A stretch of DNA of 64,000 nt from Eledone cirrhosa. Taxonomy: Eukaryota. Below are positions 976-54,917 of the stretch, piece by piece (position 1 is the first letter of the stretch; each line of letters opens with the position of its first letter). The notes beneath the pieces were generated by a model that saw only the letters and a program-made list of their open reading frames with translations, had not been told where the DNA came from and made no database searches. The position numbers and the translations under genes were made by a program. The DNA lies in contig OZ024742.1 in NCBI GenBank assembly GCA_964016885.1, forward strand, positions 281,294,001 to 281,358,000. The letters run 5' to 3'.

Positions 976-1168
976 GTATATGTATATATATATATATATA
1001 TATATATATATATATATATATATATATATGTGTGTGTGTGTGTGTAGGAGGTGAGTTTTATTGTAGTACAATAAAGCAATGCAGATATCGGATAAGTAGC
1101 ACTCTACAGTTGTAGGACTGGAGTATAAATAATATATAAGATCAAAAGAGGTTTAAAAGAGTTCCATG

Positions 1169-1238
1169 TATTTTATTATGCGCATTTCAAAAACAAATAT
1201 CATCATGCAATAACATTTGCGTTTTCGTCAGATAAAAG
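1169..1238 (-). ncRNA. Type I hammerhead ribozyme (antisense arm of palindrome)
   Basis: Minus strand TTTTAT-CTGACGA-long stem II-GAAA-T-GCGC-A-TA-ATAAAA. Confidence 0.75.
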
Positions 1239-1436
1239 AGGGAGACATGATATGAAGATTAAAACACACTTGTGAATAGTGCAGTTTTAAATCAAAATAT
1301 GAAAAGTAGTTTTAGATTGATGTGTGATATTGGGATTTTTTCCCAATATCACACATCAATCTAAAACTACTTTTCATATGTTGATTTAAAACTGCACTAT
1401 TCACAAGTGTGTTTTAACCTTCATATCATGTCTCCC

Positions 1437-1507
1437 TATTTTATCTGACGAAAACACAAATGTTATTGCATAATGATATTTGTTTTTGAAATGCGCATAA
1501 TAAAATA
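1437..1507 (+). ncRNA. Type I hammerhead ribozyme, AUA cleavage triplet
   Basis: Stem I TATTTTAT/ATAAAATA, core CTGACGA, stem II CAAATGTTAT/ATGATATTTG, GAAA, palindromic minimal stem III TGCGCA. Confidence 0.8.
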
Positions 1508-2141
1508 CATGGAACTCTTTTAACCATCTTTTGATCTTATATATTATATATATATATATTTATATGTACGACATCTCCATTGGCTCACCCACTCCCTCTA
1601 TCTATGTACTACGGCATCCCCACTGACACTCCCCCCTCTCACTATATACGCACACACACATGTATATATATATATATATATATATATATATATACGTGTG
1701 TATGTATGTGTGTGTGCGTATGTGTGTCTATGTATGTATATGTCAGTATGTATATACGAATGTGTATGTATACAACGTTTCTGTCAGACTAAGTGTGTCT
1801 ATGTATATATCTCCTCATTGTATTTGACACCACCAACACATCCACCACACCACCATAAACACCATTACCATAAACAACAACACCACACCCACACGACACA
1901 CAATAATCAGCCACAAATACACGCCAATCTGTCTACCGACAATAACCCCCTCCCCCCTTACATCACAGCCCATCTCAGCCTGAGACCGTCACCACCATCT
2001 TATCATCACATCCACCCCCACATACACTACAGGCGAAAACATCCTATGATCTATTCCACCAATCAAAACAAGCCTTATTGACCAACATATGAACTACTGA
2101 CTTTATCATTTAGCATGTATTCATTTTCTACTAGCATTTTA

Positions 2142-2230
2142 AGGGGTTCGTCGAGCTGCGGATTATAGAGTCGGGTAAGATCGATACAGATCGAACCTTG
2201 AGCTGATCAGTGGCGAAACGCGCGTCACCT
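2142..2230 (+). ncRNA. Hammerhead-like motif with variant core TCGTCGA and extended stem II; 3' end of a PLE-type insert about 1570-2285
   Basis: Stem I GGGT/ACCT, stem II GCTGC/GTGGC, GAAA-C-GCGC-G-TC, AATAAA at 2234. Confidence 0.5.
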
Positions 2231-2317
2231 ACCAATAAATGTAATGAAGGAGTAACCAATCGTCCTTGTTATCTTTTCAATATGTATATATATATATATA
2301 TATATATATATATATAT

Positions 2318-3081
2318 ATGTTATTAGTCTGGGGTCTTTCCTCATCCGAGTGCTCAAGCTACAGACCGATTATGCATATACGCTAGCTTGGCCGTATTCT
2401 AAAGATTCGTCAATGCTGTACTAAAATTTATATTTACTCCTAGAATTAACGAATAACTGATTAATTTAATTAGATGATTCTATTGATTGATTAATTGTTT
2501 AAGTTTGTTTGATAACTTCTAGTCGTGTGCTTTATTCGGTTTGTCTAAAGGGATTCATTCCTTTATCTCAAATTATAATTCATCGCCTAAGCTGGAGTTA
2601 ACTCCCTTGGAGTAAACCACGTGTCTGTGGCGACATTTAAAGTTACAACATACCCGCTCTGGCTAAGAACGAAAGACTTGCTGAAGAAGTAAATCCTATG
2701 TTCTGTCGTCAAAAACCATTATATTGCAGACTCCTGCAATAGGAATTTGTCGATTTGGAATTTGTAGAAACTTAGCGCTGATGTTGGATGTGATATTGTG
2801 ATCTATATTGTTGATATACGATGTGGGTTATATATTTTACACTCAGCCTCACCGCTATGTCCGGGTCAGTATAAAATCTTTTCCTGGGTCCTGTATTTTC
2901 GTTGCTCTGGTAATGCGGCTGGACTGCCGACCGCTATATCTGATTTGATAAGCTGTCTGAACGTAATGTTATTACTCTGGGGTCTATCCTCATCCGAGTG
3001 CTCAAGCTACAGACCGATTATGCATATACGCTAACTTGGCCGTTTACTAAAGCTTTCGTCAATGCTGTACTAAAATTTATA
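2318..3081 (+). mobile_element. Non-coding element of about 650-bp unit length with about 115-bp terminal direct repeats (pseudo-LTR-like)
   Basis: 2318-2432 recurs at about 2966-3081; flanked by (TA)n; degenerate CTGAAGA...GAAAC motif at about 2681-2775. Confidence 0.7.
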
Positions 3082-52600: not shown

Positions 52601-52823
52601 TTTTTTAAGCTTCATATAATGTCTCCCTATTTTATCTGATGAGAACGCAAATATCATCCCATGATGATATTTGTTTTTGTAATGCGCATAATAAAATACA
52701 TGGAACTCTTTTAACCATCTTTTGATTTTATATTATTTATACTCCAGTCCTATAAACTATTGAGTGCTACTTATCCGATATTTGCATTGCTTTATTGTGC
52801 TACAATAATACTCACCTCCTACA
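49570..52823 (+). mobile_element. Naiad-type PLE with inverted 3' region of about 1 kb (49570-50527 vs 51745-52737), endonuclease pseudo-ORF 50599-51655, HHRs at about 49608-49678 (minus) and 52628-52698 (plus, GAAA>GTAA), tail to 52823
   Basis: MIWYNAPFS..CNCPIRTKCPLSNQC..YFGSTSISFKARFYNH..CNLCLAEK; arms are reverse-complementary with scattered mismatches. Confidence 0.92.
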
Positions 52824-52867
52824 TTATATATATATATATATATATATATATATATATATATATCATA

Positions 52868-53137
52868 TAAAACGACTAATCAGTGATGCATTTGAACTCA
52901 ATTTATTGTGTGTTACAATTGTTTCGCCGGGGGACAGCTCGAGAAGCGATCATTGTGTAGATCATTGTGTGGATTCTCACTTAGAGAATATGCTCCGAAA
53001 TCATTAGACGTGTCCGTCGAACTTGGGGGTCCAGAATCAGACAGATCCACACAATGATCGCGTCTCGAGCTTTCCGCCGGCGAAACAATTGTAACACACA
53101 ATAAATTGAGTTCAGATGCATCACTGATTTTACGTTA
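52868..53137. mobile_element. Inverted pseudo-LTR pair with variant HHR (53010-53098 plus)
   Basis: GTGT-CCGTCGA-...AGAC-A-GATC-loop-GATC-GC-GTCT...GGC-GAAA-C-AATT-G-TA-ACAC-AC-AATAAA. Confidence 0.7.
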
Positions 53138-53170
53138 TATATATATATATATATAATATATATATATTTA

Positions 53171-54390
53171 TCACTTTCACCTTATATCTGGAGTCTAAAA
53201 GACAACCACGCCCAGTATAAGTTACACTGGGAGATCCTAGCTAGGGCTAAATCGTATAACGGAAATAAAAGACCATGTGACCTCTGAGGCCCTGGAAATA
53301 CTCTACGCCACAGACCACATCTTAAACAAAAAATCTGAGGCAATTTCGGCTTGTAAACATAAATTGCACAAAACTTTCCTCTATTACAGCCCCACGTTAT
53401 ACCCTAACGGATAGTACGATCTATACGTGGATATTTTACGTCTTGATGTGGGAGCTAAATATATATCTTGTTTATACCTTTACTTATTTGCATAGGTAAG
53501 TATATATTACCTTTATGTTTTGTGAAGGTACGTATACCTTCTCGTACGTATATTTGATTGTTATGGCGTATAATTTTATATATTCTGGTACATATGGTTT
53601 GGCTATGTGTATACGGGAGTTTTGCGTCTGTGTGAGTATGCAGGTTCGTACGTATGTAGGGTGTGTGTATTGTGTACCTCATGTTATGGTTGACTTACGT
53701 CTCCGAACATTCGTGTATTTACATGTAGGTATGTGTGTGCGCTTGTTATATAAGTATTTATTTATTTATATACGTTTATATAATTATTTATTTATGTGTA
53801 TACACGCATACACACACACACATATTTATATGTGCGTGGTTTTGTATACCTATGGTAAGTTTTTGCGTATGCTTGTGTATGTACGTATCTGTTTGCGTGT
53901 ATGTATTTATTTATTTCTATTACTTCTGTATTGTATTTATTTACTTTGTTCTTTACTCTGTAGCGGAGATTCATTCGGTCTCCTACTTAGAATTTTAGTT
54001 TACGACTTCTGCTATACCATTTACGTGGTTTTGTCTTTGCGTGCTATTCTTCTCCACGCTCCTCATATGACGTATTATCTTCGTTTTTTTCGTTCATTAC
54101 CAGAGAACATCTCTATGCACCACCAAAGAGAACATTAGCCTACGACCTCTTTTATACCATAAACGTGGTTCTGTCTTTGCGCGTAATTGTTTTTCACCGC
54201 TCCTATTAATGACGTATTATATTCGTTTTTTCCCGTTCTTTGCCAGGGAACGCTTCCACGAACCAAAGTATCGTCTTCCTGTCTTCCTCCGGTTGCAACG
54301 TTTTTTGAAATATCCAGTTCTGCGTTTACAGATTGACTTTGTTACTCGAGCCCTCTTTGGATTTTAGTCTTCAAATTTATTATTATTACT
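53171..54390 (+). mobile_element. Naiad-type PLE extreme 3' remnant
   Basis: SLSPYIWSLKDNHAQYKLHWEILARAKSY..CDL / EALEIL..LNKKSEAISACKHK; TG-rich 3' region with a tandem duplication of about 140 bp. Confidence 0.8.
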
Positions 54391-54419
54391 CTATATATAT
54401 ATATAGAGAGAGAGATTTT

Positions 54420-54917
54420 GAGTTTATGTTGGTTGTATACCAACACCTCAGTATGCAGGCTGGAGCACTCGACGAAGTGCGCAGGTTGGTTTGGTTACTC
54501 CGGAGTAGTGTAAAATAAAGTTAAATAAAAGTCAAATGATTAAAATTTAGCTTCGTTTATTACTGCTATATATATTTCAGTGACAGCCATCTTTGGCTGT
54601 GACCTCTTCAGGCAGTTTGAATTAGTATGGTATAGACAAGTACATATGTTGTTTAGGTGTATAATATTGTCAATACTCTGATATGCCCAGTTCCTTGTTG
54701 GGTTGTTAATTCACTGAATTAACAACCCAACAAGGAACTGGGCATATCAGAGTATTGACAATATTATACACCTAAACAACATATGTACTTGTCTATACCA
54801 TACTAATTCAAACTGCCTGAAGAGGTCACAGCCAAAGATGGCTGTCACTGAAATATATATAGCAGTAATAAACGAAGCTAAATTTTAATCATTTGACTTT
54901 TATTTAACTTTATTTTA
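54420..54917. mobile_element. Perfect fold-back palindrome (54511-54917, 1-nt spacer at 54714) plus tail 54420-54510
   Basis: Centre GTTAATTCA-C-TGAATTAAC; HHR on both strands. Confidence 0.9.
54812..54866 (+). ncRNA. Type I hammerhead ribozyme, AUA site (mirror copy at 54562-54616 minus)
   Basis: ACTGC-CTGAAGA-GGT-C-ACAGCCA-AAGA-TGGCTGT-C-ACT-GAAA-T-ATAT-A-TA-GCAGT-AATAAA. Confidence 0.9.

What the first reader, a model, noticed from the sequence alone, without database searches (positions are those of the whole stretch)
1098..54507. Conserved covarying hairpin (T/G)RCTC...GAGY marks the integration boundary in unrelated PLE families
Seen: TACTC(C/T)-variable inner stem-GAGT(G/A)C at 1098-1125(-), 2973-3002(+), 3179-3201(+), 11434-11490(-), 14465-14502(-), 21101-21129(+), 23407-23435(-), 25679-25702(+), 38174-38196(-), 48576-48603(-, CACTC), 52740-52768(+) and 54464-54507(-). 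Compensatory GCTC/GAGC versions occur at 7285-7308(-) and 20184-20205(-), and GGCTC/GAGTT at 20319-20374(-). Flanks and inner stems are unrelated between families and vary from about 10 to 48 nt. In the inverted pairs the untailed arm stops and joins (TA)n about 3-12 nt before this hairpin (e.g. 1547, 7657, 14385, 20762, 40450, 48718, 54917), while the other arm keeps a tail of about 80-140 nt containing it. Inference: an RNA element that binds the PLE RT and sets an internal, telomerase-like start of reverse transcription, primed by a nicked (TA)n pairing with the AT-rich junction. I do not know of a description of this motif.
Basis: partly seen in the sequence, partly recalled or inferred. 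Interest (0 to 1): 0.88.

Follow-up and report, generated by a model that had tools for sequence, protein, structure and literature searches.

The report
Twin hairpins set Penelope copying starts
Jumping genes of one Penelope-like group carry two copies of a small conserved hairpin, and their inserted copies end a few bases before one or the other, usually one of each per mirrored insertion, so the hairpins likely tell the element's telomerase-related enzyme where to start copying.

Summary
The motif is real: 12 strict hits in the window against 0.33 in shuffles, enriched in 1.2 Mb of held-out genome. It is a bulged hairpin, RYUC-[family-specific stem]-UH-GARY, on the ORF and hammerhead strand of Hydra-clade Penelope-like elements, not Naiads. 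Full-length elements carry it twice, between hammerhead and start codon. Untailed ends lie about 6 nt before hairpin 1, tailed ends about 6 nt before hairpin 2: 79 of 84 ends. Inverted insertions nearly always carry one end of each kind (19 of 19; 45 of 48). Protein-selected relatives from other hosts show the same pair with covarying inner stems. Best reading (0.65, inferred): two protein-binding hairpins position two internal reverse-transcription starts, and the known 'tail' is their spacer. Internal initiation at two sites is published for Poseidon (PMC11167929); I found no paper describing this motif. Binding is untested, RNA versus DNA action is unresolved, and one family has an atypical second hairpin. 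The scan already reported this reading on other DNA of this genome and one other genome.

The parts
1045..1544 (.). Family A inverted pair: tailed arm left, untailed arm right; minimal hammerhead cores at 1231 (-) and 1445 (+)
1099..1125 (-). Hairpin 1, family A
2319..3077 (+). Roughly 650-nt unit with the tail at both ends; starts at a TA run just before a mutated hairpin 1; degenerate hairpin 2 near 2436; intact hairpin 1 at 2973-3001
3179..3200 (+). Hairpin 1, family C fragment
7214..7656 (.). Tailed/untailed pair; hairpin 1 (GCTC type) at 7286-7308 (-); hammerhead at 7568-7612 (+), Rfam RF00163 31.7 bits, below the gathering score of 34
11435..11490 (-). Hairpin 1 with long inner part; tailed end at 11356, untailed partner end near 14381
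13273..13431 (-). Read-through copy inside the window with both hairpins: hairpin 1 at 13376-13431 and hairpin 2 at 13273-13292; the tailed copy at 11356 ends about 5 nt before the position of hairpin 2
14466..14502 (-). Hairpin 1 of another family; only a tailed end was seen for it
17691..20066 (+). 5'-truncated Hydra-clade element (family H): RT, CxCX5C linker, GIY-YIG; untailed end joined to (TA)n just before where hairpin 1 lies in other copies
20185..20205 (-). Hairpin 1 (GCTC type) of a short inverted insertion at about 20111-20283
20320..20374 (-). Hairpin 1 of tailed/untailed pair 20296-20623
20764..21183 (.). Family A inverted pair; hairpin 1 at 21101-21128 (+)
23408..23435 (-). Hairpin 1 of the family whose other window copy (52865-53135) is untailed on both sides
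25351..25761 (.). Family C inverted pair; hammerhead core at 25576 (+); hairpin 1 at 25679-25701 (+)
38114..40447 (.). Family C: short inverted tailed arm (hairpin 1 at 38175-38196, -) joined to a 2.2-kb untailed arm with ORF remains 38173-39098 (+) and hammerhead core at 40349
48536..48715 (.). Short inverted pair, hairpin 1 at 48577-48603 (-); repeated at 48980 and 49381 in a 401-nt tandem array
49572..52822 (.). Family A: untailed inverted arm plus long tailed arm with ORF remains 50598-51655 (+); hairpin 1 at 52740-52767 (+)
54410..54915 (.). Family E inverted pair; hammerhead cores at 54611 (-) and 54817 (+); hairpin 1 at 54465-54507 (-)

Best explanation
Hydra-clade Penelope-like elements carry two copies of a conserved bulged hairpin between their hammerhead and their start codon, their inserted copies end a few bases 5' of one or the other, and each hairpin likely binds one copy of the element's protein and so fixes where reverse transcription starts. 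Shown: the motif, its duplication (58-83 nt apart in other hosts, 73-133 nt in this genome), inner-stem covariation, junction offsets, the conserved TA at -8..-3, and one tailed plus one untailed end per inverted insertion. Inferred: the endonuclease cuts both strands of (TA)n; each 3' end pairs with the UA just 5' of one hairpin; two RT units, probably a dimer on one tandem transcript, copy towards the RNA's 5' end; the two cDNAs are joined head to head, possibly by a template jump onto the other cDNA's end. The copy started at hairpin 2 contains hairpin 1 plus the spacer, which is the 'tail'; the copy started at hairpin 1 lacks it. Hairpin 2 appears only in read-through and full-length copies.
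For: Junctions: 79 of 84 TA-joined ends of 8 families fall within -20..+3 of hairpin 1 (39) or hairpin 2 (40), against 20% expected; modal offset -6 at both (data are the window plus 129 arbitrary stretches). Predicted second hairpins were found at fixed spacing after the tail end: 280 matches (99 of 100 listed at one spacing), 52 (51 of 52), 455 with double counts, 141. The unsearched 3' arm completes the hairpin in 11 of 12, 5 of 6, 5 of 6 and 6 of 6 fetched loci, with a Hydra ORF start downstream in many; two more families show it in protein-selected full-length copies. Pairing: 19 of 19 (p = 2e-6 against independent choice) and 45 of 48 classifiable pairs. Either arm can be the longer one (7 and 7 of 44), so both ends act as starts. 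Other hosts: 101 sense vs 8 antisense core hits, 57 of 78 protein-selected loci; with one twin pair per cluster (24 of 61 clusters) unselected inner pairs of hairpin 1 are 96/83/71% paired vs 75/46/43% permuted (0, 1 and 20 of 10,000), with all four Watson-Crick types at position 2. In vitro precedent: PAc cuts and extends both strands, starts at two internal sites that bound its tail, needs RNA 3' of the starts, and is predicted to dimerise (PMC11167929).
Against: No binding or reverse-transcription data exist for this clade. Folding does not single out the sense strand: outer stem in the MFE for 65 of 74 sense vs 64 of 74 antisense, antisense more stable by 1.4 kcal/mol on average, G-U 12 vs A-C 9. 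Single hairpins are weak (z +0.1 to -2.5 over 9 window sites; in 2 of 9 the MFE is another fold). Family D lacks the bulged second hairpin (0 of 6) although its tail ends at a fixed place before a plain 5-bp hairpin. Two untailed/untailed pairs exist. Hairpin 2 inner pairs covary only weakly (58/62% vs 39/43%, 150 and 105 of 10,000). 18 of 44 pairs are exactly symmetric, which fold-back of one cDNA also explains. A non-Hydra element in the same window shows the same tailed/untailed pattern without the motif, so the motif is not a general PLE requirement. The permutation test only partly removes relatedness; R-scape was not run.
Confidence: 0.65

Rival explanations
1. The hairpins act in DNA: the endonuclease recognises them in single-stranded or extruded element DNA and cuts at the TA just 5' of each, so both ends are resolution cuts of a longer intermediate.
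For: Craig et al. ascribe the tail to EN-mediated resolution (PMC8557442). The D. virilis endonuclease needed the tail to cut a plasmid (as summarised in PMC11167929). Strand and molecule type are unresolved. The conserved TA could be a cut site. Other elements have inserted into these linkers in DNA (L021, L245), and several full-length copies begin at or near a hairpin's 5' edge (read by eye).
Against: PAc's two ends are reproduced in vitro as RNA-templated starts. Insertions into the linkers are expected of any TA-seeking element. Inner parts up to about 70 nt and G-U pairs suit RNA better (inference).
Confidence: 0.15
2. Only the tailed end is primed. The cDNA folds back and is copied, or an antisense transcript self-primes, and hairpin 1 marks where second-strand synthesis stops or is joined.
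For: 18 of 44 pairs are symmetric about a centre that differs between insertions. Self-priming on an antisense template was proposed for Adineta Penelope (PMC3846280). The antisense fold is as stable.
Against: In 7 of 44 pairs the untailed arm is the longer one, and at window 38114-40447 a 2.2-kb untailed arm faces a tailed arm of about 90 nt; it cannot have been copied from that arm. It does not explain why the tail end also sits before a second copy of the same hairpin.
Confidence: 0.1
3. The hairpins only recruit the protein (RNP assembly, cis preference or translational control of the nearby start codon); start sites are set by the AU-rich linkers pairing with (TA)n, not measured from the hairpin.
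For: The last hairpin lies 34-51 nt before the start codon in 26 of 39 loci. Linkers are 79% A+T. Family D keeps a fixed tail end without a typical hairpin 2.
Against: These UTRs are AT-rich throughout, yet only 5 of 84 ends fall elsewhere. The TA is conserved at a fixed distance from the stem.
Confidence: 0.1

Closest known systems
Hydra clade of C-terminal EN+ Penelope-like elements (Craig et al. 2021, PMC8557442; passages, supplement parts 1, 2, 52, 53 and one supplement search read)
   Same: RT then GIY-YIG, RWK and DKT motifs, CxCX5C linker, (TA)n targets, minimal hammerheads. By eye, 3 of the 6 published Hydra consensi (Hydra-2_Amil, Hydra-1_Ajap, Hydra-2_Ajap) contain the full motif, Hydra-1_Ajap twice upstream of its ORF.
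   Different: The passages read describe no hairpin motif and give the tail as 30-40 bp from EN-mediated resolution. Hydra-1_Crog shows only a degenerate form; none was seen in Hydra-1_Amil or Hydra-1_Obim.
Poseidon_Ac internal initiation (Frangieh et al. 2024, PMC11167929; main text parts 1-2 of 4, supplements 1 and 3 read)
   Same: Two internal RT starts that bound the tail, AT-rich targets, both strands cut and extended, RNA 3' of the starts required, predicted dimer.
   Different: Other clade; starts lie inside the ORF in an AC-rich stem-loop; no conserved motif or paired hairpins reported. I did not see the full motif in the RNA letters of its Fig. S1 (by eye). Supplement 2 was not read and the GenBank file could not be read.
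Optional tail on one of the inverted pLTRs of Penelope (Adineta vaga, PMC3846280; passages read)
   Same: A tail at the 3' end of only one of the inverted pLTRs.
   Different: 31-bp tail, no structural signal named (0 occurrences of 'hairpin' or 'stem-loop'); antisense self-priming proposed.
Telomerase template boundary element and DRT10 SL5 (PMC12632851; passages read)
   Same: A stem-loop beside the copied region sets a limit for an RT of the TERT/PLE/UG group.
   Different: Those stems lie 5' of the template and stop synthesis for repeat addition. This one lies 3' of the presumed start, occurs twice, and no repeat addition is implied.
Minimal type I hammerheads of PLEs (Cervera and de la Pena 2014, PMC4209133; part 1 of 4 read)
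   Same: Same elements and strand; hammerhead core 72-98 nt upstream of hairpin 1.
   Different: A separate motif without the CUGANGA/GAAA core; no Rfam family matched it.

Membership tests
Hydra clade PLE | RT followed by C-terminal GIY-YIG endonuclease | tested here: met
   L131 ORF and window ORF 17691-19229 read RT motifs, linker, then YYIG. Pfam gave no hit for that ORF and only a weak GIY-YIG hit (E 0.052) for 38724-39095.
Hydra clade PLE | RWK motif, DKG changed to DKT | tested here: met
   Both in L131. RW[KR] in 37 of 39 and DK[TS] in 38 of 39 long metagenomic ORFs, DKG in 2. Definitions.
Hydra clade PLE | CxCX5C linker; CxxC and CxH flanking the conserved E and N | tested here: met
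   CxCX5C in three window ORFs and 33 of 39 relatives; CxxC-E 37 of 39; CxH 38 of 39 (a loose pattern).
Hydra clade PLE | Hammerhead in the pLTR and insertion into (TA)n | tested here: met
   Hammerhead cores in families A, C, E and at 7568-7612; TA-joined ends. Several families had no core by my pattern.
Hydra clade PLE | Placement in the Hydra clade of an RT tree | not tested
   No named reference sequences were available as tool input; assignment rests on motifs.
Naiad | N-terminal endonuclease, no canonical hammerhead | tested here: not met
   Endonuclease is C-terminal and hammerheads are present. None of 17 hits of six 3'-arm 8-mers in the Naiad/Chlamys consensi was in a hairpin context, while all 3 Hydra hits were (by eye; line breaks can hide hits).
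Telomerase template boundary element | Stem 5' of the template that ends synthesis | tested here: not met
   The hairpin is 3' of the element end on the ORF strand.
Telomerase template boundary element | Binds the RT protein | not testable with these tools
   Needs a binding assay.
Known Rfam families | Match at gathering score | tested here: not met
   No match at the motif among the best 150 of 226 window hits shown; 6 sub-threshold hits in 8 related loci, none on the sense-strand hairpins.

The most novel reading that the evidence does not exclude
A clade-wide twin RNA hairpin is the docking and measuring signal for a dimeric, telomerase-related reverse transcriptase that primes both ends of a cut target from one transcript. 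It accounts for the tail, the one-sided asymmetry and the head-to-head inversions of Penelope-like elements, and defines a programmable two-ended form of target-primed reverse transcription distinct from that of R2 and L1.
Probability: 0.5. Interest if true: 0.85.

Novelty: new variant of a known kind. Interest (0 to 1): 0.72.

Why it matters
The one-sided tail and inverted structure of Penelope-like insertions have lacked a sequence-level cause. A short motif that predicts both ends to within a few bases, in hosts as distant as those of the metagenomic loci and the published coral and sea-cucumber consensi, turns that into a bench test with four mutants. It names a candidate RNA ligand for the RT group closest to telomerase, helps annotate Hydra element boundaries and passenger elements, and could give a minimal tag for directing RNA-templated insertion.

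Tried and rejected
Rfam: no family for the motif. Viral contigs: no relatives. DNA search of the own genome with a family A pLTR piece returned nothing, probably because common words are skipped. RNA evidence: no RNA holder listed; three contig runs of unrecorded kind were laid instead, and the main TA-joined loose ends fell at the two predicted sites (125 and 143 contigs in X1), but X1 may be the assembly's own sample, so I do not count it as independent. Strand assignment by folding energy or G-U excess failed. Extension to the non-Hydra family M (window 26345-27549, CX4CxxC-type linker): its tail holds a loosely similar stem, but no fixed second hairpin was found (18 unlike matches). A branch-point reading of the tail end (family H looks like a splice acceptor) does not hold for other families by eye. 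Family H was spoiled by a TA run in the reference and was redone. Reference F3 was chimeric with family M, so about 13-16 of the 115 'untailed' ends and most of its 'other' ends there belong to M; the tailed class is partly built in; 20 pairs with an unclassified end were left out of the 45 of 48, and the single tailed/tailed pair is a nesting artefact. Literature: seven searches found no description of the motif; subscription papers and Repbase entries are outside that library. bioRxiv 10.64898/2026.07.22.740005 (parts 1-2 of 5 read; supplements closed) names no such motif in what I read.
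Full report
1. Observation. All 15 sites are in the sequence as stated. The strict pattern occurs 12 times against 0.33 in shuffles. 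In 1.2 Mb of held-out genome it occurs 42 times against 11-20, with 26 of 42 hits followed by a TA run at 40-110 nt against 6% for random positions; swapped-arm and scrambled-stem controls were at or below their shuffles. The window is richer in the motif than the genome sample. The loose GCTC pattern alone is not enriched. The sites fall into about 11 families.

2. What the elements are. The genome is about 3 Gb, with 47,329 first-look candidates for one endonuclease piece. The families carry minimal hammerheads upstream of the motif on the same strand, and the ORFs lie on that strand. Assignment is by motifs; no tree was built.

3. The motif. Selecting families by their ends rather than by the motif returned further versions; many short-tailed or unrelated repeat families there lacked it. 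The shared form is RYUC-[inner stem]-UH-GARY, usually followed by RC. The outer stem varies on both sides at position 1 (G-C, A-U, and U-A in L177 and L178) and position 2 (C-G, and U-A in family F8 and L169), while U-A and C-G next to the bulge hardly change (read by eye). In a family picked by protein, 5 of 9 informative copies end just before the motif and 4 carry the tail, 3 of them with the hairpin intact (one of 10 loci was interrupted).

4. Other hosts. An alignment of 60 proteins fetched 78 loci from metagenome contigs (the best 80 of 478 were kept). Selecting on the outer core only gave 101 sense and 8 antisense hits, in 57 of 78 loci and 46 of 65 clusters. Hits come in pairs 58-83 nt apart (29 pairs). 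Of 45 loci with 140 nt of 5' UTR, 39 have at least one strict hit and 26 have two; several misses are variants by eye. With one pair per cluster, hairpin 1 inner positions pair at 96/83/71% against 75/46/43% permuted, and slid controls fall to 12-54%; hairpin 2 always opens with C-G and covaries weakly after that. Three of six published Hydra consensi show the motif by eye; Naiad and Chlamys consensi did not.

5. Two hairpins, two ends. The pairs predicted that the tail ends just before a second hairpin. This held for families H and B, A, E, the CACTC family and C, F16, F8 and F3 (the last two with a mismatched outer pair), and inside the window at 13273-13292. It failed in form for family D, whose tail ends before a plain hairpin. 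Across 8 families, 79 of 84 TA-joined ends lie within -20..+3 of a hairpin, 39 at the first and 40 at the second, with the TA run most often starting at -6. That set includes the window itself. Junctions overlap the TA run by a few bases, and relatives in other hosts keep a TA at -8..-3 (64 of 71 vs 32 of 71).

6. One of each per insertion. Inverted insertions with both ends at (TA)n had one tailed and one untailed end in 19 of 19 cases and 45 of 48 classifiable cases in further families, with 2 untailed/untailed and 1 nested artefact; 20 pairs with an unclassified end were set aside. Of 44 pairs examined, 18 were symmetric, 7 had the longer untailed arm, 7 the longer tailed arm, 3 were unclear and 9 showed no mirrored part.

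7. Mechanism. Shown: points 3-6. Inferred: each hairpin holds one RT unit so that a cut (TA)n end pairs with the UA about 6 nt 5' of it; both target ends are primed, one per hairpin; the cDNAs join head to head. A longer arm of either kind argues that both ends are starts. Symmetric pairs suggest one RNA molecule copied twice to the same break, or fold-back. PAc provides the precedent for two internal starts, both-strand extension and a need for RNA 3' of the starts (PMC11167929). Against: no strand signal from folding, weak individual hairpins, family D, and a non-Hydra element with the same end pattern but no motif. DNA-level recognition (0.15), fold-back (0.10) and recruitment only (0.10) remain open.

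8. Comparison and novelty. The elements are members of a known clade; the tail, its one-sidedness (PMC3846280) and internal initiation are published. It works like an RT-positioning RNA element but is not a telomerase boundary element: the geometry is reversed (PMC12632851). Seven literature searches and Rfam gave no description of the motif or of its duplication; unseen supplements, subscription papers and Repbase notes could hold one. Earlier notes of this scan reach the same reading on other DNA. I saw them, and they are unchecked AI notes that add no support. Verdict: a real, conserved, apparently undescribed twin RNA motif that predicts both insertion ends; mechanism likely but untested; interest 0.72.

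Noticed in passing
window 2319-3077: A roughly 650-nt unit without a long ORF, with the tail at both ends in direct orientation; it begins at a TA run exactly at the untailed site and ends at the tailed site, as if a tandem or circular RNA had been copied once round from start 2 to start 1.
   Followed up: partly
window 26345-27549: Non-Hydra Penelope-like family (CX4CxxC-type linker) with a tail of about 57 nt and the same tailed/untailed pairing; its tail holds a stem closing with UC/GA about 7 nt after the untailed end. No second hairpin was found.
   Followed up: partly
window 8571-8943 and 3309-3497: Another family forms a symmetric inverted pair untailed on both sides; its 40-nt tail (seen in other loci) lacks the motif.
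   Followed up: no
L308-L311 (family D): Autonomous Hydra family whose second hairpin is a plain 5-bp stem without bulge, yet the tail end is fixed; a natural mutant worth testing.
   Followed up: partly
L021:4337 (+ strand) and L245 upstream of its start codon: Other Penelope-like elements have inserted into the AT-rich linker just 5' of a hairpin, so the linkers also serve as DNA targets.
   Followed up: no
L234, L245, L249, L253, L266, L272, L273, L276, L278, L280: Several long copies begin at or within about 20 nt of a hairpin's 5' edge, which may mean that copying also stops there; seen by eye, not counted against a control.
   Followed up: no
L228-L257 (family B) and L001-L010 (family H): Family B's hammerhead-like stretch has a changed core and family H lacks a clear first half-core; activity unknown.
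   Followed up: no
window 48307-49595: A 401-nt tandem array (3.2 copies) has amplified a short inverted pair together with a fragment of family A.
   Followed up: no
G000 C1:91476604-91487271 and C1:437200339-437210966: The CACTC family occurs as head-to-tail arrays with a unit of about 3.5 kb, a possible source of the read-through transcript.
   Followed up: no
window 47090-47960 (-): Decayed RT plus GIY-YIG element of another Penelope-like clade (Pfam RVT_1 E 1e-4, GIY-YIG E 0.005).
   Followed up: no
window 4749-5066, 28153-28274, 31943-32137, 34620-34803, 46092-46277, 58996-59190: A frequent 190-nt repeat without the motif, possibly a SINE.
   Followed up: no
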